Virus record (IMG/VR): IMGVR_UViG_2563366977_000001
Location: 1 to 64,000 of that record
Reading direction: 5' to 3' (one strand)
DNA from: a virus
Taxonomy: Duplodnaviria > Heunggongvirae > Uroviricota > Caudoviricetes
DNA: 64,000 nt
Positions 3,272-41,533 of this stretch are shown piece by piece. A model generated the notes under the pieces. That model did no database searches, was not told the DNA's origin, and saw only the letters and a list, made by a program, of their open reading frames with translations. Each line of letters opens with the position of its first letter. Position 1 is the first letter of the stretch. The position numbers and the translations under genes are program-made.

Positions 3272-4702
3272 TTACGGATAAGTTATGCTGAACGTTGATG
3301 ATTTCACGTCCAGAAAAACAAAATCATTAAAGTACACAGCTTCTTTCATGTTCTGCGTAGCCACGTCATAAGACAGGAACATATCCAGCGATTCGATTAC
3401 TCGCCAGATATCTTTCACTTTGACCTGTGCATAACATTGCTGTGAGTCGTCATCACTCTGCAATAGCTGGCTAAATGACATGGAGTCTTTACCGAAGTTC
3501 TCCTCCAGTGCCGCTTTAATTGCAGTTAGCGCGTCATCCACCAGCACACTCTTTTTTACGATACCGGTAAATTTGATGTTGAACGGCTGTTCATTGGTGG
3601 CGACGTATTCAAACTTCTTATTCAGCTCATTAGGGATACTCTCAAGGGCTGATAATATCTCTGTTTTCAGAGCTTCCTGTGTTACGCCGGGCTTATGCCC
3701 ACAAAAGAAAATTTTGTTGATATTACGCACATCAAAGCCCGTTATTTTCTCCTGTAGCGCCTCCCCCCACACGTTAAGCCATGACGTGCCACTGACCACG
3801 TTCTGAATGAACTGGCGGTAATCACCGCCCCAAACAACCTGCTCATCGTAGGCCACATAATACTGCGCCCTGTTTCGGGTTTCCTCGGTAGTTTCCATGC
3901 CACCACCGCCAGAAATGATCGAATCGGTTTTTACTTCCAGTGATTCGACATACCCGGAGATGTTCCCTGCTGGTTCAAGTTTCTGGCCTTCAGCCAGCGT
4001 GTAATCACCGAGGCTTGCCATAATATCAATGCGTACCTGACTCCCTGCCGCTGGCATCATCCCCATTGATCCATCACCGAAGCGCACGCCGATCTGTTCT
4101 GTCGGCTTATAAACCAACACATAATGTTTACTGTTATCCCTGGACATGCGGAACAGGGGGTTATGTGTCCATTTTTCCTCGACACCATTAGTTATCACGA
4201 CAACTTCCAGGCTGGCGACTTCTGCTGTTAACTCACGGGATAGTAACAGCGTCAGGAATGGTGTTTCTTGCACCACGTCGAACGTTACGCTGACTGCTTC
4301 ATGCTGTTTTACTTCTATGCCGGATACTTTTTTACCAGCAGGGATAACAACACTACTGCTGGTTGCAATTGGTGTCTGGTCACTTGTCAGTAATTCAGCC
4401 CCGCCGGGTAGCGTAATATCCCTGTCGGTTTTGTTGGTGATGGAAACAGTGCCGTATGACGCATCGACCAAACGACCGACATAGCCACGGTCTTCCGCTG
4501 CCGCGAGAATACTTGCTCTACGCGTCGCGGTGGAAATGAATCCTTCTGTAAGTGCACGGCTTGCAAATGTACGCGCAATATAAACAATCTGCGCGCCCAA
4601 AACGGACTGCATTTGAATAAACTGGCTGTTTACAAATCGCGCCCACCAGGGGTTTTCGTTCAGCTTGGCATTAAACTTGTCCAGTAATTCGGTAATACTC
4701 AC
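3272..4702 (-). CDS. baseplate J-like protein
   Basis: Track ORF, 476 aa; size and position between the gp25-like gene and the gpI-like gene; overlaps its upstream neighbour by 4 nt. Confidence 0.45.
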   Translation of the reverse strand: MSITELLDKFNAKLNENPWWARFVNSQFIQMQSVLGAQIVYIARTFASRALTEGFISTATRRASILAAAEDRGYVGRLVDASYGTVSITNKTDRDITLPGGAELLTSDQTPIATSSSVVIPAGKKVSGIEVKQHEAVSVTFDVVQETPFLTLLLSRELTAEVASLEVVVITNGVEEKWTHNPLFRMSRDNSKHYVLVYKPTEQIGVRFGDGSMGMMPAAGSQVRIDIMASLGDYTLAEGQKLEPAGNISGYVESLEVKTDSIISGGGGMETTEETRNRAQYYVAYDEQVVWGGDYRQFIQNVVSGTSWLNVWGEALQEKITGFDVRNINKIFFCGHKPGVTQEALKTEILSALESIPNELNKKFEYVATNEQPFNIKFTGIVKKSVLVDDALTAIKAALEENFGKDSMSFSQLLQSDDDSQQCYAQVKVKDIWRVIESLDMFLSYDVATQNMKEAVYFNDFVFLDVKSSTFSITYP

Positions 4703-8000: not shown

Positions 8001-8939
8001 TGCCTTTGCTGAACCGGGCGCGTTATCTGGAGTCTTCCTTTCATTGTCAGGTGCCGGGTAAGTAATGGCGGGGGCTTTTGCGACCACCGGTGCGCCAGCC
8101 GCCTTGTCGTTGCCATTATCTATCCATTCTTTCAGTGATTTAGCCTTACCAGTAATCTCGCGGCTGATATCAAATACGCCCCGTGCTGCCATCCATAGTG
8201 GACCACCAGCCCCTACCCCGGCAGCATCGGTTACAGCTCCATCGTCAGCTTTCCCTGAACCATCAACCCCCATAATGGAACCGAGTTTTCGCAGGAACCC
8301 AACCTGTAGTTTTGCCTGTGCGCGTAGCTCATTCTGGCGTGCGAGATCCTCGTTTTTTTTCCGAGAGGCAAATCGTCCGTTGCTATCCCGTAACGGTGCA
8401 CCAGCGATGCTCTGGTTTTCTCTAACTGGTTGTTCTTGCCTTGCAGGCTGAATGTCAGAAGTGAGCGACTGAATGCGCTCAGGTGATGACTTCGTGGCTT
8501 TGCCTTCAGCCAGCGGTGCTGTTTTTGATTCCGAATGAGCGGTGCGGTGATCTGCTGCTTTTTGCGGATTATCTATCTCGCTAGTGTTGTTTATACGTAA
8601 TCTCTGTTTCTTGGCAGGGAGCCGGTCTTTATACGGCCCCTGTGTGAAACTGTTGCGTTGCGCCCCTGCTTTCCCTGTTCGGGCCAGGCGACGACTTACG
8701 CGTCCTTGTGGTGCGTCGCTGGTATCAGGATTGTGTCCGTAAGACTCAAGTGCTTTTTTTATTTCTGAAAGCGCAGCTAGCTCTTTCGCGTTTGCCGTTT
8801 GTATTGCGTCGATTATCGCTATTCGGTCTTTTTTATCGTTCAAAATAACCTCACTTACATCGGCGGTGATCACCCTGTTTTTTTGGCGTGGGCTTTGTAT
8901 TTCTCTTCCAGTGCTTTTTCCATATGGAGTGCCCGCCAC
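5079..8939 (-). CDS. tail tape-measure / injection transglycosylase-like protein (P1 Sit-like)
   Basis: Track ORF, 1286 aa, with long low-complexity A/G/K-rich stretches and a conserved C-terminal globular region; position upstream of baseplate genes. All plus-strand track ORFs inside it are antisense artefacts. Confidence 0.5.
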   Translation of the reverse strand: MAGTPYGKSTGREIQSPRQKNRVITADVSEVILNDKKDRIAIIDAIQTANAKELAALSEIKKALESYGHNPDTSDAPQGRVSRRLARTGKAGAQRNSFTQGPYKDRLPAKKQRLRINNTSEIDNPQKAADHRTAHSESKTAPLAEGKATKSSPERIQSLTSDIQPARQEQPVRENQSIAGAPLRDSNGRFASRKKNEDLARQNELRAQAKLQVGFLRKLGSIMGVDGSGKADDGAVTDAAGVGAGGPLWMAARGVFDISREITGKAKSLKEWIDNGNDKAAGAPVVAKAPAITYPAPDNERKTPDNAPGSAKAFTEAVKEKSVRAIEEQTKVLQRNDSQIIDELETVSEEIRKLRKSQESGLKLSDLLGGGRLRTKISPTRGRSSARGGNTGRTGDSKENKGKKGKNTSKPTETGRSQEGKEGKKNQPGKNNSAGEEKNRTKKAGGNEGSTSPKSSGDKSSVKTRAGKVTEESVAKTAAGGAAGKDAGKAATSAGESLTRKEAGKVAVATGENIAKKEAGKVALKAAGGVAARAGFRAIPVIGQVAMVGYDAVDGYSDTEAQRATYNLKEGQDVTTQQKSAYAAANVLDMGGLVTGAANLIGEGMSALGFEGVGQKLQSLDTSNIARGINSSIDASKNAFSSLKESFSSSSEGTAQVKKAVEDGTKQTVAAINDLARQLQGGRRGEDGVGEHGYKSPDEFKAPEKNTITADLNIGGSNAKNRNYRNNNLGNLVFANQEGAVLEAPNAKGEQRFARFNTPEEGIRALANQVSSYYNGTSAAAGYQKLQTVSSIISKWAPPTENNTNQYIENVSKYLGVSPNDKIDVSNPEVMTHLVRAIATKEGGNPAVNNNFIKTALGSFNAKTGRWEGQFNDETLEHINKIQKEKGGPLIARNSQYSVGSKVKYANGSSSAIPASSVAQAVMPSPTDVVQHAQAAKKPKAAQQENAQAISHAKASGNSSAAAGLTERLMSAAGVGGVIAGIVGGDPNMGLNLGPVSSPEEMSSLAAKAKQLDKFLVEKTSRATGKNFSFQKAEQIADITTAIQQKRKVNRDTETIDLLPESPATISEKRATSTPAGVQIYDNGYKVVEGEDRGFFGSLFDSTVSGLNQVGSAVLPAVGDNLSRLVGGIDSTGMLNDFVLQSSGQNTDVARAISPLTRSVGGWLNGGIQKTADTIRDTTGAINQSLFASGVAAKEPFLAMPPQLPTVTDLARSGIRQMLTTDTANNDPAMLKALENVYSVLKEILGVSKDNRKGDQDKVVNTSQPQPRQRASTTINDPSLDKLLED

Positions 8940-30107: not shown

Positions 30108-30258
30108 AGGTCGATTTATCAGGTATCGAAAGGAAGATTTTCGGGAGATTGTGATTTTGGATGGAGGAGGGGAATTGTTGCAATATGCACTTGCGCACGG
30201 TGCAACGGTGCGCTATCATTATGACATTCATTAATAATCATGGAGGATAAGATGATCG

Positions 30259-30561
30259 ATGAGCAAAAAGATTAACATAAAGAATTTCAGGGATGAGTGG
30301 CTTGATGATTTTTTTGAATTTTCAATACCACACAAAAAGATACCTTCTGATATTCAGATTACATTGTTGCGGAAGCTGGATATTATCAATGCTGCAACTA
30401 CTTGGAAGGACTTGAGATCACCACCAGGTAATCGGTATGAGGAATTGTCAGGGAAGCTAAACGGCTATTCATCAATAAGGGTGAATAAGCAATACAGGTT
30501 AATTTTTAAGTGGGTTAACGGAAAGGCCGAGGACTTGTATCTCGACCCTCACAAATACTAA
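30259..30561 (+). CDS. higB: HigB-family toxin (RelE/ParE superfamily, plasmid maintenance killer)
   Basis: 100 aa, pattern ...DLRSPPGNRYEELSG...SIRVNKQYRLIFKW...LDPHKY, followed by a VapI-type HigA gene. Confidence 0.65.
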   Translation: MSKKINIKNFRDEWLDDFFEFSIPHKKIPSDIQITLLRKLDIINAATTWKDLRSPPGNRYEELSGKLNGYSSIRVNKQYRLIFKWVNGKAEDLYLDPHKY

Positions 30562-30632
30562 AACAAATACCCGGCGGATGGGCCGGGTACTGACCAGAGT
30601 CCACTTAATACGCACGCTAGTAAGGGCAAAAA

Positions 30633-30971
30633 ATGAAACAGGCAACCAGAAAACCGACGACTGTAGGTGATATCCTGCTGTACGAATACCTGGAGCCGTT
30701 AGAGCTTAAGATCAACGAGTTAGCAGAAATACTTCATGTTCATCGTAACACCGTAAGTGCTCTTGTTAATAATAATCGTAAGCTAACGATGGATATGGCA
30801 TATCGCCTGGCAAAAGCATTCGATACTTCTGTAGATTTTTGGATTAATCTTCAGACCGCAGTAGACCTGTGGGAAGTCGAAAATGATATGCGCGTTCAGG
30901 AAGAGTTAAGTCGTATCAATACTGCTGAAAAATTTATTTCTCAGCGGAACCTGAATAAAAAAGCAGCCTGA
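30633..30971 (+). CDS. higA: HigA antitoxin (XRE helix-turn-helix, VapI-type)
   Basis: VGDILLYEYLEPLELKINELAEILHVHRNTVSALVNN...AYRLAKAFDTSVDFWINLQ, the characteristic HigA HTH. Confidence 0.7.
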   Translation: MKQATRKPTTVGDILLYEYLEPLELKINELAEILHVHRNTVSALVNNNRKLTMDMAYRLAKAFDTSVDFWINLQTAVDLWEVENDMRVQEELSRINTAEKFISQRNLNKKAA

Positions 30972-30987
30972 TATAGTAAAACACATA

Positions 30988-31018
30988 CAAAAAGCCCACT
31001 TAACAAGTGGGCTTTCCT
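30988..31018 (+). terminator. rho-independent terminator
   Basis: aaagcccacttaacaagtgggctttcctttgg. Confidence 0.55.
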
Positions 31019-31388
31019 TTGGAATTAATGAACATTAAACCTATCCGTACAGAACAAGATTATGAGGCCGCACTGCGTGAAGTCGAACCGATGTTCGATA
31101 ACGAACCGGAAATGAATACCCCGGAAGGTGATTTCTTTGAGGTCATGTGTCTTCTCATTGAGGAGTACGAGAAAAAACATTATTCCAATTGAGCCACCAT
31201 CACCTATTGAAGCCATTAAGTTCCGTATGGAACAGCAAGGGCTGACCGTGAAGGATCTGGAACCGGCTATTGGTAAATCAAATCGTGTTTACGAGGTGCT
31301 AAATGGGACACGAAATTTGACGTTACCTATGATTCGCCGTTTACATTCCCAGTTTGGCATTCCTCTTGAAAGCCTAGTTGGTGTTTAA
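31007..31388 (+). pseudogene. HigA-family antitoxin-like HTH protein interrupted by a +1 frameshift
   Basis: Two track ORFs (31007..31192 and 31128..31388) join into one family-typical protein (...EEYEKKHY|PIEPPSPIEAIKFRMEQQGLT...) if one T is removed from cattattcc near 31180. Confidence 0.55.
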
Positions 31389-31449
31389 GTTTGGCGGTCT
31401 GGATGACCGCTTTTACCAAAAGTAAAGTTAAGAAGGTTTGATTGTTTAT

Positions 31450-32187
31450 ATGAGCAAAGATTCATCATTAGAAAATAAAGATGAAAATATCACTGTCAAG
31501 AATACAATCGAAGAAGCCATTAGAGACAAGTTATTTAATAAGTTGTTTGCATATGTTGTGGTTTCTTTTTTTGTCGTTAACTGGCAGGATATTTTCATTT
31601 TATTTAAATCAAAGTACGATATATATACGACATTATCTATAGTATGGGTAGGTGATGAGTATAATATCCCCTTTTTGCCATCATTCATTTTGCCACCATT
31701 TGTAGCTCATTTTGTCATGCCATTTATATATGGCACTGTTGCGTCTGTTATTATACCTTATGTTACGTTGTTTATATCGAAAGCCACAGGTAGAAATTAT
31801 GCAAGGATACGATATCTTGATTATGAATTTGATTTGAAAGAGAAAGCCAAAATAGAAGATTTAATGTTTGATCTGCGTAGCAAAGAAAGCGCCAGATTAG
31901 ATTTGGATGCAGCAATAGAGGAGAGAATAAAATCATTAAGTGCAATCGACTCTAAGAACAAAGAGCTTCTGGACGACAGAGTTGCTTTGTTCGAAGGCAT
32001 AAAAGCGATAGTGGATGTATATACAGAAAAAAATAAAAGAATCTCCTCGCCTGAAGATTTTGTTGATTTATTAAAGGCTGTGGAAAGAACTGATTTTTAT
32101 AAGGATATTGGTTTGTCTGGCATAAATGATTTAATAGCTGATTTAAAGAATACTTACGAAGACATACTTAAACCCATGTCCGACTAA
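31450..32187 (+). CDS. membrane protein of unknown function (AT-rich cargo gene)
   Basis: Start MSKDSS; two to three transmembrane segments (FAYVVVSFFVVNWQDIFILF; FILPPFVAHFVMPFIYGTVASVIIPYVTLFI) then a charged, probably coiled-coil C-terminal domain. No family recognised. Confidence 0.45.
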   Translation: MSKDSSLENKDENITVKNTIEEAIRDKLFNKLFAYVVVSFFVVNWQDIFILFKSKYDIYTTLSIVWVGDEYNIPFLPSFILPPFVAHFVMPFIYGTVASVIIPYVTLFISKATGRNYARIRYLDYEFDLKEKAKIEDLMFDLRSKESARLDLDAAIEERIKSLSAIDSKNKELLDDRVALFEGIKAIVDVYTEKNKRISSPEDFVDLLKAVERTDFYKDIGLSGINDLIADLKNTYEDILKPMSD

Positions 32188-32280
32188 CGCTTAAAAGGCG
32201 GATTTTCCGCCTTGCTTTGATGACTTTGATGTAAAACATTTTTTCAGCTATTTGAACACCATGATGGTGTTATTCGTGAT

Positions 32281-32760
32281 TTGTCATTTCTTGATGCTCA
32301 TCAGGCTGTGTTTGTTCAGCAACAAGAAGGAAAGCAACCGATAGAGTATCGCTTTTGGGTTACGTACTCTTTTCACTGCTTCACAAAAGACTATGCACAC
32401 CAGACTGAGGAAGAGAAACTGGCGTTAATGTACCACGCCCCTAAAGAGTCTCGTCCATTTTGTGAGCGTCGCTATAATCTTGCCAAACTTCACTTAAAAG
32501 AGGCAATTCTGTCATTGTCGGAAGGTAAGGTGATCCATGCCGGATACGGAAGCTATGCCGTTATTGAGGTAAATATTGGGGAGGGTAACAAGGAGTATTA
32601 TTTTGTTGCGTTTAAGGCTTTCAGGGAAAAGAAAAAGTTGCGGTTACACATCACTAGCGCCTACCCGGTATCAGAAAAACCAAATGGCAGGTCAGTGAAG
32701 TTTTTCGCAATCGCATACAATCTGTTAAGGAACAAACCGCTTCCTAAGCCACCAAAATAA
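32281..32760 (+). CDS. hypothetical soluble protein (AT-rich cargo gene)
   Basis: 159 aa, no recognisable motif; co-oriented with the membrane gene and followed by a terminator. Confidence 0.4.
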   Translation: MSFLDAHQAVFVQQQEGKQPIEYRFWVTYSFHCFTKDYAHQTEEEKLALMYHAPKESRPFCERRYNLAKLHLKEAILSLSEGKVIHAGYGSYAVIEVNIGEGNKEYYFVAFKAFREKKKLRLHITSAYPVSEKPNGRSVKFFAIAYNLLRNKPLPKPPK

Positions 32761-32761
32761 C

Positions 32762-32785
32762 AAAGCCCACCTTAAGGTGGGCTTC
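32762..32785 (+). terminator. terminator hairpin
   Basis: aaagcccaccttaaggtgggctt. Confidence 0.5.
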
Positions 32786-32985
32786 GCCAGAAATTATTTT
32801 CTGGTATTCAGAACGCCATTACCGGACTTTGCCTTGACCAAGTATCACAACAGGCTTGACCTGTTATGATAGCTGGTTGCGGGATGTCTGAATTTCTTCA
32901 GTCTGCTGCATCCTCGAAGGTTTGGTTCAACATGTACCATTCCTTCACCGTCATAATAGTGAACTATTCACGTCCTTACAAACAC

Positions 32986-34191
32986 TTATACATTTTTTAC
33001 GTTGTTCTTCACATACGCCATGAACATCTTTTCGGCTTGTGCTGGTGGTGTTCCTGCCATAACAAGCGCGTCAATGAACGCCTGCTTCTTCAGTGCGAAC
33101 TGGTCAGCAAGACGTTGCTGAAGTTCCTTGTTTTTCTGCTTCTCCCGTTGCAAAGCAGCTTCTTTTGCCGCTGCCCGTTTTTTCTGTGCGTCGGATAACT
33201 TTCTGGCCCTCGTCAGTTGGTCGCGCAGCTTGTCGATCTTACCGTTGTCCTTTGCCAGTTTTGAGCTTAAAGCGGCCTGGCGTTTCTGATAGAGCTTCCA
33301 TTCACGTTTAGCTGCCTCAACATTCGTTTTGCTGCTACGGTTTCGATTGAACGCCTTCTCGTCTTCTTTTGTGAAGTGTTTTGTCGTGCGGCGGCGATCG
33401 TCACCAAAGGCAACTTGCGTTGCAGCTTTTTGCAGGGCGCGAGCAATACTCATCTGCCAACTGGCAGACTGTAGTCGTGTCATTGAGTGGATCACATGTT
33501 TACAGGCGACGCCTTGCAGCTTAGGGTTGCGAACTTTTGGATAGGCGTATTCTTTTGGCGGGGCCAGGGCAAAGTTACCCGCAGTGGCGATGTAGCGATA
33601 CCAGTATTGATGGCGACCGCAGTCACAATCGAAAGACACTCGCCCGGCACACAGTGATTTTGTGACTTTCAGGGCTGATTTATCGTCTTCTGCGATGTCA
33701 TCGACCATCTGATCCCATTCTTCAAAACGTACCCGGACAATGTGGTGCTGGTGAACGGATATATCGGACGCTTCCACGCGGATATTAATCACATTGTGAC
33801 GAAGAGATACGGGCGTAGCTCTTTTGATACCAGAACCGTCGTCTACGGCGTTATTTGCTCGCTTAATATCGATAGCCTGGCTGGACGCTACCAGTTGTGC
33901 GTATGTAATGCCAGCCGTCTTGCTGTCGTATTTTTCGCGTGCTTTGCTTCGCAGCTTTTCGAAGCCTTTCAGATCGTCACGCGTAAAGAACGTGCCGCCT
34001 TTCTTTTTCCCCAGCTTAAGAATGTCTTCGGCTGATTTATTCCTAAGCCTGCCCGGCGTGAGTGTCCTGTGCGCCTGGCGGCGTTTGCGGTTTTGCTCTT
34101 TCCTGATGAGTTCAAATACGCGTGTGAAATCCTTAGAGGACAGGCCGTCAGTGATATATCGCCCGTCCTGATTTTTCAGGAAGTCAGGCAT
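32986..34191 (-). CDS. basic protein with SWIM-like zinc-finger motif and coiled-coil C-terminus
   Basis: 401 aa; FDCDCGRHQYWYRYIATAGNFALAPP...VACKHVIH gives a CxC...CxH arrangement; K/R/Q-rich C-terminal third. Confidence 0.4.
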   Translation of the reverse strand: MPDFLKNQDGRYITDGLSSKDFTRVFELIRKEQNRKRRQAHRTLTPGRLRNKSAEDILKLGKKKGGTFFTRDDLKGFEKLRSKAREKYDSKTAGITYAQLVASSQAIDIKRANNAVDDGSGIKRATPVSLRHNVINIRVEASDISVHQHHIVRVRFEEWDQMVDDIAEDDKSALKVTKSLCAGRVSFDCDCGRHQYWYRYIATAGNFALAPPKEYAYPKVRNPKLQGVACKHVIHSMTRLQSASWQMSIARALQKAATQVAFGDDRRRTTKHFTKEDEKAFNRNRSSKTNVEAAKREWKLYQKRQAALSSKLAKDNGKIDKLRDQLTRARKLSDAQKKRAAAKEAALQREKQKNKELQQRLADQFALKKQAFIDALVMAGTPPAQAEKMFMAYVKNNVKNV

Positions 34192-34513
34192 TTTCTATCT
34201 CCGGTGCCGAGCCAGCGTAATCGCGAATCTTGTTTCTTAGCCATGCTGCGTCAGGAAGAGTTAACGTTGTCCCTACCGGCATTTCTTCCATTTCTGACTC
34301 ATGGCCCACCAGCACGCGAAATACCCAGCGCAAATCAGCGTTGCCATAGGCGCGATAGGCCGCCAGGTCTGAGCGATAAACCTCATCAATTTTTATCGTG
34401 TACTGGAAATTATCGGAGTGATACTCCGATACCCGCTTGATCATCTCCTGATGGAATAGTGCGCGCAGCACATCGTCTTCAATGCATCGATCGTCGAGCC
34501 TGCTGTAACTCAT
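34184..34513 (-). CDS. hypothetical protein
   Basis: 109 aa; 8-nt overlap with the start of the SWIM-like gene suggests translational coupling. Confidence 0.35.
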   Translation of the reverse strand: MSYSRLDDRCIEDDVLRALFHQEMIKRVSEYHSDNFQYTIKIDEVYRSDLAAYRAYGNADLRWVFRVLVGHESEMEEMPVGTTLTLPDAAWLRNKIRDYAGSAPEIENA

Positions 34514-34605
34514 AACAGTTCCTCACAGTCATAACCTGGGGGGAACTGTATGCAGGGTGTGAAATGCGAGAAAGCAGCGTCACCTTGCCTGGTGACGCTG
34601 TGAAA

Positions 34606-34887
34606 TTATGCGTGTGAAAATAATGGACGGATGTTTGGGCGAGCGGTTTGCGAAGCAACCCAAAGCTCATACTGGGATTGCATACCGGTCCACATTTCGG
34701 CACTGGTTCCAAGAGCGGACTCCAGACGAAGTGCCATATCAGCGGAAATACCTGTTTTTTCGTTCAAAATTCGGGAAAGTGCCGTGCGAGTAATGCCTAA
34801 TGCAGCAGCGGTGTCTGTGACTGATATGTCTCCCAAATATTCACGAAGAACCGCGCCTGGATGCGCGGGATTATGCATACGACTCAT
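34606..34887 (-). CDS. HigA-type antitoxin-like XRE HTH protein (VapI-type), orphan
   Basis: [18 protein letters not shown]...[38 protein letters not shown]. Confidence 0.6.
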
Positions 34888-35183
34888 ATGTGGAAAGCAA
34901 CCCGTTTACCGGTTGGCAATTCAACGTCCAGACTCAACTTCCCACCCATAGCCTCAACGTAACGTTTAAGCGTTGCCACTTTCAAGTCATTGCCTCGTTG
35001 TTCAAGTTTTGTGATGGCTGGTTGACTAATTCCCATCGCATCGGCAACTGTTTTTTGTGATAACTGAAGCTCCTCTCTCAACATCTGCAATCCGACTTCC
35101 AGAATCATTTCATCAGCCTGCTCTTTGATACGAGCTTGGCTTTCAGGGGATTGCGCAGCAATAACTTCTCTTAGAGTTCTCAT
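34884..35183 (-). CDS. XRE-family antitoxin (HigA2-like) paired with the Gp49-like toxin
   Basis: 99 aa HTH protein ([43 protein letters not shown]) overlapping the toxin gene end. Confidence 0.55.
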
Positions 35184-35530
35184 TATTTTTTCTCAAGTTC
35201 TGCAAGATGGTTGGAAAATTCGTCGTCTGCAATCCGTATCATTCTTTCGTAGAACTTTTTATCGTTACTTTTATCTCCGGCGCACAGGATTATGGCTTGC
35301 CTTACCGGATCAAATGCGAAGAATGCTCTGATAGGGCGACCAGCGTACTGAATCCGTAACTCCTTCATGTTTTTATGGCGTGAGCCTTTAACTGTGTCGG
35401 CATATGGCCTTGATAATGAAGGGCCATATGTTTCCAGATTGATCAGGTCAACCAGGATTTTTTCTTTTAATGCAGGTTCCTGTTCCTGGAACCATTCATC
35501 AAAAATTTTTCCAAAATAAATTTGCCACAT
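35183..35530 (-). CDS. RelE/ParE-superfamily toxin, phage Gp49-like (HigB2-like)
   Basis: 115 aa; I recognise the pattern of Gp49-like addiction-module killers; first gene behind a perfect palindromic operator. Confidence 0.55.
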   Translation of the reverse strand: MWQIYFGKIFDEWFQEQEPALKEKILVDLINLETYGPSLSRPYADTVKGSRHKNMKELRIQYAGRPIRAFFAFDPVRQAIILCAGDKSNDKKFYERMIRIADDEFSNHLAELEKK

Positions 35531-35551
35531 AGTTATTCAAAATCCTTTTTA

Positions 35552-35603
35552 ATAAACTACATGTTATAAACTACAGGTTATAGCATATAACCTGTAGTTT
35601 ATA
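35552..35603. promoter_or_regulatory. operator: 17-bp-arm perfect palindrome plus one extra direct half-site, upstream of the toxin-antitoxin operon
   Basis: ataaactaca tgtt ATAAACTACAGGTTATA gca TATAACCTGTAGTTTAT. Confidence 0.55.
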
Positions 35604-35635
35604 TTTTCAAGACCGTTTTTTATTCGATTTAGCAT

Positions 35636-36289
35636 TTAAAGTATCACGGTATCCTCATCAACTTCTGTCCCTGCCAGTGACTTTGGCTGGGAGGCGGCTG
35701 CTTTAACCTTCTCATGCCCAATAATGGACAGGAACGAGGCCATTATCCCTGCTTTGTTTTCTTTCTCTACCGATCCAGTCATTTGCTTCAGGTAATCCGC
35801 GCTGGCAACATTGTGGTATACCGTTGCATAGCAGCACAGAATCATCAGGATGTGCTCTGGTCGGATATCTTGCCAGTTAACTCGATAAACCTCTTCACCG
35901 TTGCCGTTGTATTCGGTATCGACGATAGAGTCGGGGATCTCGAATGCCCCTTTGTTCTTGTCAGGCAGGGATAGCAGCCTTTGTAGTTTCAGCTCTCGGT
36001 ATCTCTCCATGCCGACAATGATCGCCGCTCTGCCGTCGGCGTGCCGTGTTTTTAATGTTACCTGGCTGGCACCTGTACCGGCTGAAATGGTTGGCGTGAT
36101 TTCGTCAACCAGCACCTTAAATTCACTTTTACGCAGCTCGGCAATTGCTGGTGGAATTTTTCGTTTTTGTTCAATAGCAGATGCTGGGAGGGGCTTTACT
36201 TTGTCAATTACAAGCGCACCGTCTTTCAGGACTGCCGTAGCCATCAGCGGCTTGTTAGTCGAAAGGCTGAATATTGCGATCTTTTGCAT
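35636..36289 (-). CDS. hypothetical protein
   Basis: Track ORF, 217 aa. Confidence 0.3.
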   Translation of the reverse strand: MQKIAIFSLSTNKPLMATAVLKDGALVIDKVKPLPASAIEQKRKIPPAIAELRKSEFKVLVDEITPTISAGTGASQVTLKTRHADGRAAIIVGMERYRELKLQRLLSLPDKNKGAFEIPDSIVDTEYNGNGEEVYRVNWQDIRPEHILMILCCYATVYHNVASADYLKQMTGSVEKENKAGIMASFLSIIGHEKVKAAASQPKSLAGTEVDEDTVIL

Positions 36290-36554
36290 GGCTTTTACTC
36301 CACGATAGCAGGCACAAAAAAAGGCCGCACATGGCGGCCTGCTTTGGCGTTATGACTCCCTACCGCGCATCGGCTGAAAGTTAGTCGTCAAAAGAACCTT
36401 CAACGGGAGCCGTTTGCGCAATGGATTTTGTCCAGATTGTGATTTCCAGAATAGTGTCAACAATTTTTTTGAATTTTTTATTCGCGCTGAATTTGGCCTA
36501 AGTCATTTTGGCGTAGATGTTTGCTTTTGTAACATAAAACTTCAGTTTGTTTAC

Positions 36555-37184
36555 ATGAAGGATGGTTTTGTGAAGTTAAGGGTTTTGGGAGCAGTGCTCG
36601 CGGTTATATTGGGGGGAGTTTCTCTTAATGCTGCCTATGCAGGCGCGTTACCTGCAAAGTATGAGGCTGGGCTGAAGGTGTTGCGAAACGCCAAAACAAA
36701 CTATACGCCTGATGAAGTTTCAAACTATTGCCAGAAAGAAAATATCCCGCTGAAACCTGTAGAGCCATTCTTTAAAAGCAACATTGAGTTCTGTGTATTT
36801 GCATATGCAGCAGATGAAACAGGCAAAGCCATACAAAAGACAGGGTATTCCACCAAAGACACAATGTCGGTGTTAAGTAACGGCGTGTTGCAGTTTGAGC
36901 TTTATCGTCAGCAAGGAATGGGAGATCTATTGCAGCCTTTGTATATGCTGGCTTGGGTGCCTGAAGGGCAGCAGTTTCTTATCCGGAAAGGGATGCTTCG
37001 GCAAAGTGATGTGGCAGGATTCAATAACATGATGGAACTTGAACGAGCCGCGAAGCAAAAACAAGCACCTAAGCAACCTACAGCGGAATGCATTCGTAGT
37101 GAGATCCAAAAGATATTAAGTGAGCAGCCTTACATTGATCGTGGGGTAGCCGAAGTCGCTGCAAAAATGAAATGTACTAATTAA
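36555..37184 (+). CDS. secreted protein of unknown function
   Basis: Start at MKDGFVKLRVLGAVLAVILGGVSLNAAYA (classic signal peptide); track ORF starts earlier at 36414. Confidence 0.45.
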   Translation: MKDGFVKLRVLGAVLAVILGGVSLNAAYAGALPAKYEAGLKVLRNAKTNYTPDEVSNYCQKENIPLKPVEPFFKSNIEFCVFAYAADETGKAIQKTGYSTKDTMSVLSNGVLQFELYRQQGMGDLLQPLYMLAWVPEGQQFLIRKGMLRQSDVAGFNNMMELERAAKQKQAPKQPTAECIRSEIQKILSEQPYIDRGVAEVAAKMKCTN

Positions 37185-37227
37185 AGTCAAATAGAATAAC
37201 AAAATGGTAACATCTGGAGTTTGTGAA

Positions 37228-38049
37228 ATGTTTTTAAAGAAATGCGGAAACATATTTTGTTCAACAGCGTTTACTGCTGTTATTGCTCTTTCGGTTCCCA
37301 GCATATCTTTTGCTGAAGATTTTAGCAAAATTGACTGTAACGCCACAAAAACAAGGCAGATGTTGATCGATGATTATAACGAACTTTTAAAAGATGAACC
37401 GGAAAAAGTAACAGTAATTGATGCTTACGATCAGGTTAATGAAATAAGCGAAAAAAATAAACTCCAATGCTTGGGAACGTATGAGTTCTCTGATGGAAGC
37501 ACGCTTAGAGTTAGGTATAATTTATACCTAAACAGCCTAGGTACACCTATATATAAATTTGTCCCAGTTGAGGATTTAACGCAATATGACGTAAGCGCAT
37601 CTATTCATAATGCTCCTGCAACCATTACGAGTGCGCCTGAAAATAATGGAAAAACATACGCCTGTAAGGTCGCTGTAACCTACAATGGAAAACGCTCTAA
37701 CTACATGGGGGATTCTGGTACATGGGATCGTGTGATTACTGATTATGGATCTTACTTCTCATGGGATTTGCCACGCGGAAACAGAGGTAACAGCACTGGG
37801 CAGGATGCTTTTAGTGGTATAGACGAATCAAAGCCTGTATTAGAAAATCAGTTGGTGAGAAAGGAAGTCGAAAAAGATGGTAGTGTGGTTGATGAGTTCA
37901 GGACTGAAGTAAGCTATGGTGAGAGACAATCAGCACATAAGTTTGTATATGCCCGTAGAATAAAACCTACAGGGACGAGAGAATATTATGTCACAGATCT
38001 GACTGATAAACGGGCATTTATGTTTCTGAATTGTCAGCAAGATTCGTAG
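37228..38049 (+). CDS. secreted protein of unknown function
   Basis: Start at MFLKKCGNIFCSTAFTAVIALSVPSISFA (signal peptide) with GGAG upstream; AT-rich gene. Confidence 0.45.
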   Translation: MFLKKCGNIFCSTAFTAVIALSVPSISFAEDFSKIDCNATKTRQMLIDDYNELLKDEPEKVTVIDAYDQVNEISEKNKLQCLGTYEFSDGSTLRVRYNLYLNSLGTPIYKFVPVEDLTQYDVSASIHNAPATITSAPENNGKTYACKVAVTYNGKRSNYMGDSGTWDRVITDYGSYFSWDLPRGNRGNSTGQDAFSGIDESKPVLENQLVRKEVEKDGSVVDEFRTEVSYGERQSAHKFVYARRIKPTGTREYYVTDLTDKRAFMFLNCQQDS

Positions 38050-38088
38050 TTGATATAGCAGGCTTAAAGATTAAGCCTGCTATTTGTT

Positions 38089-38439
38089 TTACTCGGTAAT
38101 TGTTTTACAGTTGTTTTTATTTAAGGCCAACCCAAGTTTACTTGAGGCCAACTCATTTTCGGTGTGAGTGCCAGCAAACACAAAGCCTTGTTTTATCTTG
38201 TTTATGGTGAAATATTTGTTGTACATGAAAGCCCAAATAAAAGAGGCGATCCAGGGGCCAATTCCGGCAGTGAGGAATGCCAGTATCAGCATCACCACGA
38301 ACACCCCAATGAAGGTTATAAAGTCTTTCCTGAACAAAGCAGGAAAAGCACCAAACAAGAATGTAGTCCAAGAAAAACCATAAAAACCGGTTATTGACTC
38401 GCCAGTTTGAGGATTTTCAAGTTTAATTTTAGTAGCCAA
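38089..38439 (-). CDS. small inner-membrane protein
   Basis: 116 aa with two to three hydrophobic helices. Confidence 0.35.
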   Translation of the reverse strand: MATKIKLENPQTGESITGFYGFSWTTFLFGAFPALFRKDFITFIGVFVVMLILAFLTAGIGPWIASFIWAFMYNKYFTINKIKQGFVFAGTHTENELASSKLGLALNKNNCKTITE

Positions 38440-38570
38440 AACTATTCATCCTTTAACATAAAAAACAAATACTTATAAAGCTGTGTGAGTCCGCAATACT
38501 ACTAATTTACACTTTGTAATGCAATGAGTTGATGTATGTCTTGTGACGCTGTTATTCATATCTGTAGGAG

Positions 38571-38909
38571 TTAAGATTTTTCGGTAATGGTGATTTCATC
38601 TCCTAGCCGATAACGGCGGGGAACGGAATTCTCCATCAGGTCGCGAATTGCTCCCGCCTCACGCAGTTCCTCTGTCTCCCAGTATCTGTTTGTCACCAGG
38701 TCAAGGCTGGCAATGACTTTATGCCGGTCATTCGGCATGGCTTCTTTTTCAGCCATTATCATCAGTGAGAACTCTTCATCCAGTAGAATTTGATACCAGA
38801 CTTTTGACAGTTCCAACTCTCTAATGAGGGTGAAGCGCCGCTCAATTGTGGCGGAAGAATAAGTGAAATCAATTTTTTTCGTGGCATACATTTTGCTGTG
38901 TCCGGTCAC
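38571..38909 (-). CDS. hypothetical protein
   Basis: Track ORF, 112 aa, downstream of the antirepressor gene. Confidence 0.3.
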   Translation of the reverse strand: MTGHSKMYATKKIDFTYSSATIERRFTLIRELELSKVWYQILLDEEFSLMIMAEKEAMPNDRHKVIASLDLVTNRYWETEELREAGAIRDLMENSVPRRYRLGDEITITEKS

Positions 38910-38947
38910 TTAGTAGTTAAAGCCCCGGCATGACCGGGGCAAATCTA

Positions 38948-39889
38948 TTAACTAACAATCCAGTCGGTCGCTGCTACATCTTCTGGCTGTAAATCAATCG
39001 CATAGATCTTGCCGTCGCGAATGGTGCGCCAGTTTTTCCGTGAGCCTCTTTCGGGCCATACCCAGACACTTTCAGGCCAGGATGCTCGACGGCATACGGT
39101 TGCATACCCTGTTTTAATCTTCTCTCTGGCGGTATGCAACGACAGGTTTGCCTTTGGACTTTCAGGCACAGGATGGTGAATGGCCTGAAATAGCCCCATC
39201 TTGGGATGATACCAGCGTTTGTTGCGTGGTTCTGCCTCCGACATAACCTGCTTAAAGGCTTTCCGGAAGGGGGCCAGGGCCACAATGGAGCGCCGCGCAA
39301 GCAAACCGTCGGGAGTTAAAAACTCATGCGTATCAGTGGGTATCCGGTAAGCGTTGACCAGGTTACGGCATTTGGCTTCAGTCAGGCCACATTTCGCCGC
39401 CAACTGGCGGTAGCCAATGTAGCCTTCCGGAATATTACCTTTCTTGATCTGCTCGACGGTTTCAGCGACTTTGGACACTTGTGCCGATACTTCGGCTACC
39501 TGGGCATTAACGGCGTTGATCCGGCGTTCATGCTCAAGATGCATTTGCGCCATTTCAGCCAGAATTTCGGCTTTTGATTTTAACTGTACCCGGGCATTCT
39601 CCAGTTCGCGCCAGCGGTCCACCAGCCGGGCGGTGAATTCGGGAGAGAGCTGCGCGACGACGACAATACTATCGCGCTTGCCTTGCTCGCCTTCGAAGAC
39701 ATAGACCGGATCTTTGACAACCTTCCCTAAGTTATTGATTCTTTCGACGAACTCATTTTGAGTTTCTCGGATGACACCGCTAGCCATCATATTGCGAATG
39801 GTACGTAAAACATTGCCGTGACGACTACCAACTAACTCTGCAATATCTAGGCTACTCATTGTCGCTTTTTGAGAGATGGACAGATTCAT
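38948..39889 (-). CDS. ant: phage antirepressor (Rha/Ant family)
   Basis: N-terminal MSSLDIAELVGSRHGNVLRTIRNM (Rha-type regulatory domain) plus C-terminal domain; start overlaps the upstream small ORF, as icd-ant does in P1. Confidence 0.55.
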   Translation of the reverse strand: MNLSISQKATMSSLDIAELVGSRHGNVLRTIRNMMASGVIRETQNEFVERINNLGKVVKDPVYVFEGEQGKRDSIVVVAQLSPEFTARLVDRWRELENARVQLKSKAEILAEMAQMHLEHERRINAVNAQVAEVSAQVSKVAETVEQIKKGNIPEGYIGYRQLAAKCGLTEAKCRNLVNAYRIPTDTHEFLTPDGLLARRSIVALAPFRKAFKQVMSEAEPRNKRWYHPKMGLFQAIHHPVPESPKANLSLHTAREKIKTGYATVCRRASWPESVWVWPERGSRKNWRTIRDGKIYAIDLQPEDVAATDWIVS

Positions 39890-40104
39890 CAGTGCACCTC
39901 CACGCAGTTCATCGGCAGATTCCAGTAATTGAGGATCTCCATCGCATCAAGAGTGAAGCGAGCAGCAAAAATGCAGGGTTCTTCGGGAAGGTATGAGCGC
40001 GCTTCTGCTTCGGTTGCAGCCATGACGCAGATATACAGGTGTTTTTGGCAGGAATAGAAACGCCAGATAAATTCAGAATGAGTTGGGGTAGGGATAGTAG
40101 CCAT
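39889..40104 (-). CDS. small protein in the Icd position upstream of ant
   Basis: 71 aa; assignment by synteny only. Confidence 0.25.
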   Translation of the reverse strand: MATIPTPTHSEFIWRFYSCQKHLYICVMAATEAEARSYLPEEPCIFAARFTLDAMEILNYWNLPMNCVEVH

Positions 40105-40119
40105 ATTGGCAGCCTCCTT

Positions 40120-40400
40120 TTGCTAATTTAAGGAGCTACCGCGTGAGGTCTCAATCTCAATGGCGGTAGCACTGGCTGGGTTGAGACTACCGGCGCAAAA
40201 GGGAACCGGCCTGCCTTTCGGCAGCCCAGCCAGCACTACCATTGATCTTGGAGCTATACGCTACGTATGGCTGTGCGATGGCATGACACAAAAAAAGACG
40301 CTTTCGGCGTCTGTGTCGCCTTTTGCATTATCCGGGGTCTCAATCCCGGCACCCGTTTTTCTAAGGTGCCGTAGAAATATACCTCACGATAATGCCAGGG
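40120..40400 (-). ncRNA. candidate structured antisense regulatory RNA (c4-like) in the ant leader
   Basis: Dense hairpins and repeated ggtctcaatc (x2) versus ttgagact; no ORF of 60 aa or more; operator-like motif at the promoter end. Confidence 0.3.
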
Positions 40401-40915
40401 CGCAACAGTCAGTATTTTATGCTTTGGCGGATTTCTTCCGGGCTTGCTTGCAGGCGTAGGCCATTGCTTTAGCTTTCACTTCATCCAGCTTTCCGGTGAT
40501 CACTTCTTTTCCGAGAGTGACAAACCAGTCATAGCAACCGCCAGTGATGTTCTGGATTTGAAAGTTGAGGTAGCGAACGGTCATTTTGACACCCCCAGCG
40601 CGAGTAAAGAATGCAGATTATCGCGTGAGTGGCGGACAACGAGTGATGGGAAAGGACAGTAGCTGTTCATAGTGTAGTGACTCCTTGCTTTCGGAGCCGC
40701 CATCGACTGTTCCACGGTCTGGTGGCGGCGCAATAAAGGTTGGAACACCGTGAGTCAACGGGGGCTTTTCAGCCACCTATATTGCACCGCCATTGGTATG
40801 GCGGCGGCAATCATACGAAAAACCAAACGGTTTGTCTCAAAAAGTTGACCGGTGTACCAATCGGTTGTGAATGTACAACGGCGAATCTCACAATTCAACT
40901 TAAAATGTTAGAAAA

Positions 40916-41533
40916 TTAATTCATTAATTCAGTCACCATCTGATACAACGTCATTTCATCAGCATTGTGCCGCCTGAAATCTGCTTTGCCGCCTATTTTT
41001 CCATCAGCATGAACAGGAACCAACCAGGGGTATTGCTCGCGGATCTCTGCTGGCGCTGCGTGTTGATGGTGCCATTTACACAAAGGGAGGACGTATTTAT
41101 GCGCGTTCTCTGCTGTTCTCCCAAAGATGTGGTGCAGGGATACCACAGGGCTATGCTGTCCGTGCATATGGCAGGCAATGCAGGGGAGAGCACCGATGGC
41201 AGTTTGTATCCGGCGCTCATCTGCTGTGAGTGTTCTGCCTTTCAGGCCGCGTGACGCGCGCGTTTTTTTGACAGGAGCAGAAGCGGCCTTCTCTTTTCTT
41301 CGCTGTTCATATTGCTTCGCTTTTTCAATTTTCTTTTGCCGATATTCAGGCGATGCGGCTTTTTCTCGCGCACGCTGCTGCTGGCGTTGAGCTTGCTGAA
41401 GACGCTTTGCCCTTTGTTCCTCCCGCCATTTCGGATCAGCCAGTTTTTGCAGGGCTTTTTGTGTCTGTTTCTCCCAATAGCTTTGCTTCATAGAAATACC
41501 CGGTTTGTCTACATAGCCGCTATGGTTGATCAA
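40916..41533 (-). CDS. HNH endonuclease with basic N-terminal region (P1 Ref-like)
   Basis: CIACHMHGQHSPVVSLHHIFGRTAENAHKYVLPLCKWHHQ HNH motif; K/R/Q-rich N-terminus; operator palindrome directly upstream. Confidence 0.5.
   Translation of the reverse strand: MINHSGYVDKPGISMKQSYWEKQTQKALQKLADPKWREEQRAKRLQQAQRQQQRAREKAASPEYRQKKIEKAKQYEQRRKEKAASAPVKKTRASRGLKGRTLTADERRIQTAIGALPCIACHMHGQHSPVVSLHHIFGRTAENAHKYVLPLCKWHHQHAAPAEIREQYPWLVPVHADGKIGGKADFRRHNADEMTLYQMVTELMN

What the first reader, a model, noticed from the sequence alone, without database searches (positions are those of the whole stretch)
36555..38439. AT-rich moron island encoding two secreted proteins and a small membrane protein: candidate superinfection-exclusion or host-interaction cargo
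Two adjacent genes (36555..37184 and 37228..38049) encode proteins with classic Sec signal peptides and no recognisable domain, followed by a convergent small membrane protein at 38089..38439. The block is clearly more AT-rich than the flanking phage genes. P1 encodes a periplasmic superinfection-exclusion protein (SimC), so a periplasmic exclusion role is plausible here, but this is inference.
Basis: inference. Interest (0 to 1): 0.45.

Follow-up and report, generated by a model that had tools for sequence, protein, structure and literature searches.

The report
Sim-like secreted-protein cassette in phage-plasmid
This is a low-GC, swappable accessory cassette of a D6/P1-type plasmid prophage that encodes two exported proteins (one with a domain homologous to phage P1 SimB) and a small membrane protein; it probably acts in the cell envelope, perhaps to keep out other phages, but no function has been shown, so it is a fairly ordinary piece of phage cargo.

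Summary
Three real genes lie at the stated coordinates. ORF1 and ORF2 have Sec-type signal peptides, ORF3 is a small membrane protein, and the block is 40.7% GC against 47.4% for the window.

The window is a D6-like (P1-related) phage-plasmid of E. coli. The island lies between mat and the c4-icd-antirepressor (immI) operon.

"No recognisable domain" is only partly right. ORF2 residues 31-116 are a full-length homologue of mature P1 SimB (47% identity, E 2e-23). This domain is fused to a rare C-terminal domain that elsewhere stands alone or follows other N-domains. D6 orf79 is already annotated "similar to simB".

Neither ORF1 nor ORF2 resembles SimC, the P1 gene annotated for superimmunity. 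ORF1 is an orphan all-helical protein with four invariant Cys and no fold match. ORF3 belongs to a widespread, stand-alone small membrane-protein family.

The locus is a recombination hot spot with alternative secreted-protein cassettes, deletions and pseudogenes. All three genes are under purifying selection.

Best reading: this is the D6-lineage counterpart of the P1 sim locus. A periplasmic exclusion role is inferred (about 0.4), not shown. Interest is modest.

The parts
36290..36554 (.). Intergenic region between mat and ORF1. It is nearly invariant across D6-like plasmids and presumably holds the regulatory signals for mat and/or ORF1-ORF2. It contains a hairpin at 36322-36340 with a T-run on the - strand.
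   Evidence: Alignment of five loci; terminator-like hairpin; - strand fold z = -2.3; no Rfam match; no sigma-70 consensus match.
36573..37184 (+). ORF1: an exported, all-helical orphan protein of 203 aa from the GTG at 36573, or 209 aa from the ATG at 36555. The signal peptide ends ..NAAYA|G. There are four invariant Cys (59, 80, 179, 207 in 209-aa numbering).
37228..38049 (+). ORF2: an exported two-domain protein of 273 aa. The signal peptide ends ..SFA|ED.
   Evidence: Family matches: phrog_13054, 11 clusters, 30 representatives in 1.84 G proteins. dN/dS 0.12-0.14. It corresponds to D6 orf79, annotated 'similar to P1 gene simB'.
37318..37575 (+). SimB-like domain of ORF2 (aa 31-116): one helix followed by four strands, with an invariant Cys pair (C37/C81).
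37645..38046 (+). C-terminal domain of ORF2 (aa about 140-273). It is beta-rich, carries the motif SWDLPRGNRGNSTGQDAFSG, and has a conserved Cys pair (C146/C269).
   Evidence: The domain is found alone (145-170 aa) or after unrelated N-domains, always behind a signal peptide. AF2 confidence is low. No Pfam or PDB sequence match.
38055..38083 (.). A 13-bp-stem hairpin with T-runs, placed between the convergent ORF2 and ORF3. It is probably a bidirectional terminator.
   Evidence: The stem is conserved in L003 and D6.
38089..38439 (-). ORF3: a 116-aa small membrane protein with at least two TM segments. It belongs to a widespread, highly conserved family.
   Evidence: phrog_4915. 222 clusters with E <= 0.001, from chromosomes of alpha-, beta- and gammaproteobacteria and from jumbo phages. 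Unrelated neighbours in chromosomal copies. Only sub-threshold DUF2628 and DUF6693 matches. dN/dS 0.04-0.06. It corresponds to D6 orf80.
36993..38588 (.). The segment actually exchanged relative to backbone-matched plasmids: the 3' third of ORF1, ORF2, ORF3 and the AT-rich spacer.
   Evidence: Against L023 and L004, blastn homology stops at 36992 and 37025 respectively and resumes at 38589 in both. Those plasmids carry a different ORF1 tail plus a 130-aa secreted protein in its place.

Best explanation
The island is the D6-lineage counterpart of the phage P1 sim (superimmunity) locus. It is a non-essential, horizontally exchanged cassette placed next to the immI (c4-icd-antirepressor) operon, and its products act outside the cytoplasm.

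ORF1 and ORF2 lie 43 nt apart on the same strand with one terminator downstream, so they are probably co-transcribed. Both are probably exported by Sec, cleaved by signal peptidase I and stabilised by periplasmic disulfides.

ORF2 joins a SimB-type alpha+beta domain to a rare beta-rich domain. ORF1 is an orphan helical protein that accompanies ORF2 even in a distant relative.

My committed mechanism is that these periplasmic proteins bind a component of an incoming phage's DNA-delivery apparatus, or a host envelope factor that apparatus needs. This would block entry after adsorption, as has been reported for P1 Sim (from memory of the 1989-1990 papers, which I could not read here).

ORF3 is most likely an independent inner-membrane module that travels with ORF2.

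Shown: the homology, the architecture, the accessory and mosaic nature, and purifying selection. Inferred: export, co-transcription, expression in the lysogen and the exclusion function.
For: Element and position:
- The window is a D6-like phage-plasmid.
- C4 RNA lies at 40159-40246, followed by icd and a Rha-type antirepressor, so the island is within about 2 kb of immI. P1 simABC is also next to c4.

Homology and architecture:
- ORF2 aa 31-116 matches SimB at 47% identity, E 2e-23.
- SimB-like domains are nearly always small proteins of about 105-120 aa, and the members whose sequences I read all have signal peptides.
- P1 SimA, SimB and SimC all start with signal-peptide-like sequences.
- ORF1, ORF2 and the alternative cargo gene read on the + strand (a 130-aa protein) each have a signal peptide and paired Cys. 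P0009 has a hydrophobic N-terminus and the Cys pair of the shared C-domain.
- The ORF1-ORF2 pair is kept in a distant 88-kb element at 42% and 56% aa identity.

Accessory nature:
- ORF1 is deleted in phage D6, leaving a scar.
- Both genes are frameshifted in CP042620.
- The cassette was swapped between plasmids that share the same backbone and the same Sit allele.
- P1 simABC is non-essential (PMC10695390). It is also a low-GC variable region of P1-like plasmids (PMC9603915).
- The vicinity of simB is a variable region in Salmonella D6-like prophages (PMC6799933).
- dN/dS of 0.04-0.18 shows the genes are maintained.
Against: - SimB itself has no demonstrated function. The P1 record calls it a 'putative accessory function'.
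- SimC has no homologue in ORF1, ORF2 or anywhere else in the window.
- No promoter was found, and no P1 C1-operator or late-promoter pattern, so the time of expression is unknown.
- In P1 the sim genes diverge from c4. Here they converge on the 3' end of the immI operon.
- There is no PADLOC match.
- An ORF1 homologue sits beside repB on a conjugative Vibrio plasmid, outside any obvious phage context.
- ORF3 relatives are chromosomal and stand alone.
- Overall dN/dS shows no arms-race signature.
Confidence: 0.4

Rival explanations
1. The cassette is lysogenic-conversion cargo that changes the host envelope for the bacterium's benefit, for example stress tolerance, colonisation or resistance to colicins or other envelope attacks. 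It would have no role against phages.
For: - The proteins are exported and have no phage-specific domain.
- An ORF1 relative lies on a conjugative Vibrio plasmid.
- A stand-alone copy of the ORF2 C-domain lies in a 42-kb contig with no recognisable phage genes among those called.
- The ORF3 family is chromosomal in many Proteobacteria.
- These plasmids are common in clinical and livestock isolates.
Against: - The only homology to a named gene is to the sim operon of P1.
- ORF1 and full-length ORF2 are almost confined to D6-like elements of about 90 kb.
- The locus sits beside the immunity region.
Confidence: 0.2
2. The three genes are unrelated passengers that pile up at a recombination hot spot. 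There is no joint 'island' function. ORF3 in particular would be an independent small membrane protein, and the ORF1/ORF2 adjacency would reflect linkage only.
For: - Every combination occurs: ORF1+ORF2+ORF3 (window; 4 of 117 matching PLSDB plasmids), ORF2+ORF3 (D6 and most of the 56 plasmids with full-length ORF2), ORF1 plus a 130-aa protein, ORF1+ORF2 without ORF3, and a C-domain protein with another N-domain and no ORF3.
- One swap boundary lies inside ORF1.
- ORF3 relatives have no conserved neighbours.
Against: - The ORF1-ORF2 pair persists at 42% and 56% identity in a distant element.
- Full-length ORF2 and ORF3 occur in equal numbers of D6-like plasmids, 56 each.
- All + strand cargo at the site is of one kind: exported proteins with paired Cys.
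Confidence: 0.3
3. The proteins serve the phage's own lytic cycle in the periplasm, for example by controlling lysis or peptidoglycan digestion, or by protecting the producing cell from its own Sit transglycosylase. They would not exclude other phages.
For: - The element encodes a 1286-aa Sit injection transglycosylase.
- The neighbouring gene mat is a maturation control gene.
Against: - ORF1 is dispensable in phage D6, and both genes are pseudogenes in some plasmids.
- P1 sim genes are non-essential for plaque formation.
- The cassette type does not follow the Sit allele.
- No P1-type late-promoter pattern was found.
- The fold match is weak and generic.
Confidence: 0.1

Closest known systems
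Phage P1 simABC (superimmunity/superinfection-exclusion) operon, specifically SimB
   Same: - ORF2 aa 31-116 is homologous to the whole of mature SimB (47% identity), with the same signal peptide plus Cys-pair layout.
- All products start with signal-peptide-like sequences.
- Both are low-GC, variable, non-essential accessory regions next to c4/immI.
   Different: - There is no SimA or SimC homologue.
- The SimB domain is fused to an extra 157-aa region.
- An unrelated helical protein (ORF1) precedes it.
- The orientation relative to immI is convergent, not divergent.
- SimB's own role has never been demonstrated.
Phage D6 orf79/orf80 (MF356679; Gilcrease and Casjens annotation)
   Same: - The locus is orthologous: orf79 is 80.5% identical to ORF2 and orf80 is 95% identical to ORF3.
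- orf79 is already annotated 'putative superimmunity accessory function protein, similar to P1 simB'.
   Different: - D6 has lost ORF1. Only its first codons, about 17, remain, fused in frame to the region upstream of orf79.
- The window keeps the fuller arrangement.
T4 Imm + Sp (Spackle) and other envelope-located exclusion proteins (P22 SieA, HK97 gp15, T5 Llp, phi80 Cor, TP-J34 Ltp)
   Same: The logic is the same (from established knowledge): small phage-encoded proteins in the inner membrane or periplasm that block DNA delivery by incoming phages. A membrane protein plus a periplasmic protein resembles the Imm/Sp pairing.
   Different: - No match to any Pfam, PHROG-annotated or PADLOC family, and no fold match for ORF1.
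- ORF1 and ORF2 are soluble exported proteins without a lipobox, unlike Llp, Cor and Ltp.
- No functional data exist.
DUF2628 / DUF6693 small membrane proteins (for ORF3)
   Same: The size and layout are similar (a short N-terminal tail, then closely spaced TM helices). There are sub-threshold Pfam matches in 8 and 7 of 17 family members, and some UniRef entries use the DUF2628 name.
   Different: ORF3 itself gives no Pfam match at E <= 10, and the best family E-values are 0.054 and 5.8e-4. No function is known for either family.

Membership tests
P1 SimB family | Sequence homology to SimB across the mature protein | tested here: met
   BLASTP 47% identity over 86 aa, E 2e-23, covering SimB residues 28-111. 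tblastn hits only SimB in P1-type phages. A profile search recovers about 20 clusters of SimB-like proteins.
P1 SimB family | N-terminal Sec signal peptide and a conserved Cys pair | tested here: met
   Signal-peptide features were judged by hydropathy and an AXA-type site. C37 and C81 are invariant in 10 sequences. No dedicated predictor was available.
P1 SimB family | Stand-alone protein of about 110 aa followed by an overlapping simC | tested here: not met
   ORF2 is 273 aa with an added C-domain. No simC homologue follows it or exists anywhere in the window.
P1 SimB family | Contribution to the superimmunity/exclusion phenotype | not testable with these tools
   The P1 record gives only 'putative superimmunity accessory function'. 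This needs infection assays.
P1 SimC (the Sim exclusion protein) | Sequence or profile similarity to SimC | tested here: not met
   BLASTP E > 4 for ORF1 and ORF2. hhalign probability below 1%. tblastn of SimC against the window gives a best E of 0.37. Structural similarity could not be tested, because SimC could not be modelled here.
Moron (autonomous accessory transcription unit in a prophage) | Deviant base composition and variable presence among related genomes | tested here: met
   GC is 40.7% against 47.4%, in the lowest 4% of windows. At least five cassette variants occur at the locus.
Moron (autonomous accessory transcription unit in a prophage) | Own promoter and own terminator | tested here: inconclusive
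   A terminator-like hairpin lies at 38055-38083 and is conserved. No sigma-70 consensus match exists anywhere in 36200-38700; only 7-8 of 12 matches were found by eye.
Lipoprotein exclusion proteins (T5 Llp, phi80/N15 Cor, TP-J34 Ltp) | Lipobox [LVI][ASTVI][GAS]C at the end of the signal peptide | tested here: not met
   Read from the sequence: ORF1 ends ..NAAYA|G and has no Cys before residue 59. The early Cys of ORF2 sit in LKKC and NIFC contexts.
Pfam DUF2628 (PF10947), for ORF3 | Score at or above the Pfam gathering threshold | tested here: not met
   No match for ORF3 at E <= 10. 8 of 17 relatives match only at E >= 0.054.
Known anti-phage defence systems (PADLOC-DB) | Match to any PADLOC model | tested here: not met
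   The only hit is a spurious 12.5-bit TnsB match.

The most novel reading that the evidence does not exclude
ORF1 and ORF2 together would form a previously undescribed two-protein periplasmic barrier to phage DNA entry that works without SimC. The cystatin/NTF2-like SimB domain would act as an inhibitor or binding module for a component of the incoming tail tip, for example the Sit transglycosylase/tape-measure protein. The swappable C-domain and the alternative cassettes would set target specificity. This would also give the long-unassigned P1 SimB its first function.
Probability: 0.15. Interest if true: 0.55.

Novelty: new variant of a known kind. Interest (0 to 1): 0.3.

Why it matters
D6- and P1-type phage-plasmids are common in clinical and livestock E. 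coli and Salmonella: 100 of 5426 complete E. coli genomes carry a related locus. Their variable low-GC regions are where cargo, including resistance genes, is exchanged.

If the cassette excludes phages at the envelope, it would affect phage therapy and P1-based transduction in such strains. It would also give a function to the SimB family, which has stayed unassigned since the sim region was sequenced (GenBank M34382).

If it does not, the result is simply a better annotation. RefSeq currently calls all three genes 'hypothetical protein'. They could instead be described as a SimB-domain fusion protein, an orphan exported partner and a conserved small membrane protein sitting at a recombination hot spot.

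Tried and rejected
- Similarity of ORF1 or ORF2 to SimC or SimA: none by BLASTP, hhalign or tblastn.
- Pfam, NCBIfam and PADLOC for all three proteins: nothing above noise. PHROGs gave only families of unknown function.
- PDB by sequence profile: no hits at E <= 1.
- The 130-aa alternative cargo protein against the ORF2 profile: no relation.
- P1 C1-operator consensus and a P1 late-promoter pattern (taken from LPsit): no matches in the window. D6-type regulators may recognise other sites, so this says little.
- Sigma-70 promoter scan of 36200-38700: zero matches.
- Rfam on 34000-41500: nothing inside the island.
- Co-variation of cassette type with the Sit allele: rejected. NZ_LR890273.1 has a 98.8% identical Sit but a different cassette.
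- The P1 genome paper (PMC523184) is not held. The original sim papers and the D6 paper did not turn up in my searches of the library. Statements about the Sim phenotype therefore rest on the GenBank annotation and on memory.
Full report
**What the window is.** The region matches Escherichia phage D6 and about 117 plasmids of roughly 90 kb from E. coli, Salmonella and Shigella at about 82-85% nucleotide identity. These are D6-like, P1-related plasmid prophages. In complete E. coli genomes a related locus occurs in 100 of 5426 genomes, always on plasmids. One plasmid, NZ_CP159120.1, carries a 100% identical island in which all three genes are annotated 'hypothetical protein'. To the left lie homologues of P1 genes 25, 26 and mat. 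To the right, on the minus strand, lie a pmgF-like gene, a Rha-type antirepressor and icd. C4 antisense RNA follows at 40159-40246 (76 bits). The island therefore sits at the 3' end of the immI operon.

**Check of the observation.**
- The three ORFs are present as described.
- ORF1 more probably starts at the GTG at 36573 than at the ATG at 36555. Homologues and RefSeq models begin MKLRVLG, and AAGGA lies 10 nt upstream. Either start gives the same signal peptide.
- ORF1 and ORF2 each have a basic N-terminus, a single N-terminal hydrophobic stretch (residues 5-27 and 9-29) and a small-x-small cleavage motif (AYA|G and SFA|E). Neither has a lipobox (sequence).
- The AF2 models leave residues 1-31 and 1-28 unstructured.
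- ORF3 has a strongly hydrophobic block at residues 34-71, preceded by a weaker segment.
- The island is 40.7% GC against 47.4% for the window, in the lowest 4% of equal-sized windows. The flanking genes are at 49-51%.
- A 13-bp-stem hairpin with T-runs separates the convergent ORF2 and ORF3 and is conserved in relatives.
- dN/dS against orthologues is 0.18 for ORF1, 0.12-0.14 for ORF2 and 0.04-0.06 for ORF3, so these are maintained genes.

**What the proteins are: ORF2.**
- It has no Pfam, NCBIfam or PADLOC match.
- tblastn against phages finds P1 SimB. Residues 31-116 align with the whole mature SimB at 47% identity, E 2e-23.
- D6 orf79, 80.5% identical to ORF2, was already annotated 'similar to P1 gene simB'. 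A paper on Salmonella D6-like prophages notes a simB homologue without simA or simC (PMC6799933).
- An exhaustive profile search of 1.84 billion representatives found only 30 relatives.
- The SimB-like domain occurs mostly as secreted proteins of 105-120 aa with an invariant Cys pair.
- The C-terminal part (about aa 140-273; motif (H/R)GNRG(D/N)STG; C-terminal ..LNC) is a separate module. It also occurs alone (145-170 aa) or behind unrelated N-domains, always with a signal peptide.

**What the proteins are: ORF1.**
- It is an orphan. There are seven clusters in 5.8 billion proteins, on contigs up to about 95 kb in E. coli, Shigella and Salmonella, and 67 PLSDB plasmids carry a homologue.
- It has four invariant Cys.
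- The AF2 model is all-helical (pLDDT 73, pTM 0.62).
- It has no fold neighbour in the PDB or BFVD.

**What the proteins are: ORF3.**
- It belongs to a highly conserved family, 50-60% identical across alpha-, beta- and gammaproteobacteria, with at least 222 clusters.
- Relatives are also found in jumbo phages.
- Chromosomal copies have unrelated neighbours.
- It reaches only sub-threshold similarity to DUF2628 and DUF6693.

**Relation to P1 sim.**
- In P1, simA, simB and simC lie next to c4, and all three products begin with signal-peptide-like sequences.
- The record assigns superimmunity to SimC and only a 'putative accessory function' to SimA and SimB.
- Neither ORF1 nor ORF2 shows any similarity to SimC or SimA by BLASTP, profile comparison or tblastn over the whole window.
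- The homology link to sim is therefore real, but it runs through the member whose function is unknown.
- Orientation also differs. P1 sim diverges from c4, whereas here the genes converge on the end of the immI operon.

**The locus is a cassette hot spot.** Comparison of plasmids shows at least five states between mat and the pmgF-like or antirepressor genes:
- ORF1+ORF2+ORF3: the window, and 4 of the 117 PLSDB plasmids that match the island.
- ORF2+ORF3: D6 and most of the 56 plasmids with full-length ORF2. An in-frame remnant of the ORF1 signal-peptide codons marks a deletion.
- An ORF1 variant plus an unrelated 130-aa secreted protein with two Cys.
- The same with frameshifts, i.e. pseudogenes.
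- A protein with a different N-domain and the same C-domain, without ORF3.

A distant 88-kb metagenomic element keeps ORF1 (42% identity) next to ORF2 (56%) without ORF3. Against plasmids with a near-identical backbone, homology stops inside ORF1 (about 36993-37026) and resumes at 38589. NZ_LR890273.1 has a 98.8% identical Sit protein but a different cassette, so cassette type does not follow the Sit allele. P1-like plasmids likewise show simABC as one of eight variable, low-GC regions (PMC9603915). P1 simA, simB and simC are non-essential by CRISPRi (PMC10695390).

**Mechanism.** What is shown:
- The cassette is accessory, frequently exchanged and under purifying selection.
- The cargo proteins read on the + strand (ORF1 and ORF2 here, the 130-aa protein elsewhere) have signal peptides and paired Cys.
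- One of them carries a SimB domain.

What I infer:
- ORF1 and ORF2 are co-transcribed. They are 43 nt apart, a Shine-Dalgarno sequence precedes ORF2 and they share a downstream terminator.
- They are exported, oxidised in the periplasm and act there on an incoming phage's DNA-delivery machinery, or on a host factor it needs. This is the step reported for P1 Sim (my recollection of the 1989-1990 papers, which I could not read here).
- ORF3 is probably an independent inner-membrane module.

I put this at about 0.4. The rivals are envelope-directed host-benefit cargo (0.2), unrelated passengers at a hot spot (0.3, partly compatible with the above) and a role in the phage's own lytic cycle (0.1). 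No promoter, C1 operator or late-promoter pattern could be found, so the timing of expression is open.

**Novelty and verdict.**
- The simB-like gene of D6-type prophages is already in the literature and in GenBank annotation.
- New here: ORF2 is shown to be a fusion of a SimB domain with a separately mobile C-domain. ORF1 is described as a conserved exported partner. ORF3 is placed in a widespread chromosomal family. The cassette states and their exchange boundaries are mapped.
- This is a new variant of a known kind, not a new kind of system.
Its interpretation is partly supported: the neighbourhood and the gene family are right, but the homologue is not the one it named (SimC), and the function is undemonstrated.
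- Interest is modest (0.3). It would rise if expression assays showed that a SimC-less SimB-domain cassette excludes phages.

Noticed in passing
window 36290-36520: The roughly 230-bp intergenic region between mat and ORF1 is nearly invariant across D6-like plasmids, although their flanking genes are only about 80-90% identical. It holds a GC-rich hairpin (36322-36340) with a T-run on the - strand. That could terminate a small - strand transcript or shield mat from read-through. The - strand fold has z = -2.3, and there is no Rfam match.
   Followed up: partly
window 40159-40246, 40291-40369, 40718-40797 (all - strand): There is a C4 antisense RNA (76 bits), an isrK-like Hfq-binding RNA (59 bits) just upstream of it, and a second C4-like element at 42.3 bits, just under the gathering score of 45. 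This suggests a duplicated or diverged immI regulator.
   Followed up: no
window 34574-35635: A block of three small ORFs on the - strand (34606-35530) is absent from the otherwise near-identical plasmids NZ_CP159120.1 and NZ_LR890273.1. The outer two correspond in position to genes annotated as a HigA antitoxin and a RelE/ParE toxin in related plasmids. The block is an insertion between the gene-26 homologue and mat.
   Followed up: partly
window 30200-32800: This is a second island with even lower GC (about 38%). It holds a pair of small ORFs resembling a toxin-antitoxin module (30259-30971; no family search was run), a 249-aa ORF and a 159-aa ORF (31438-32760). It is another cargo hot spot.
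   Followed up: no
window 5079-8939 (-): The 1286-aa Sit-type injection transglycosylase/tape-measure protein is a rare allele. Only 7 PLSDB plasmids are at least 95% identical, and the other D6-like plasmids listed are mostly 57-62% identical.
   Followed up: partly
L001 (phage D6) 6258-6330: D6 orf79, as annotated, starts within a remnant of the ORF1 signal-peptide codons, fused in frame to the region upstream of the real ORF2 start. This is a deletion scar, so the annotated 298-aa product is probably too long at its N-terminus.
   Followed up: yes
L020 (Vibrio parahaemolyticus pLH214-1) 4031-4504: A distant ORF1 homologue (29% identity, E 5e-11) lies next to repB on a conjugative MOBC/MPF_T plasmid. 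The ORF1 family is therefore not confined to D6-like phage-plasmids.
   Followed up: no
L002 (phage P1) 4248-5042: P1 SimC gives a sub-threshold Pfam match to the OB-fold family tRNA_anti-like (PF12869; E 0.0011; 19 bits against a cut-off of 23.5). This is a possible lead to the fold of SimC.
   Followed up: no
L012 (Citrobacter koseri chromosome) 4001-4360: An ORF3-family gene lies directly downstream of a VgrG / DUF4123 / two unknown proteins / PAAR gene cluster. This would fit an immunity-like role there, but Cedecea copies have quite different neighbours.
   Followed up: no
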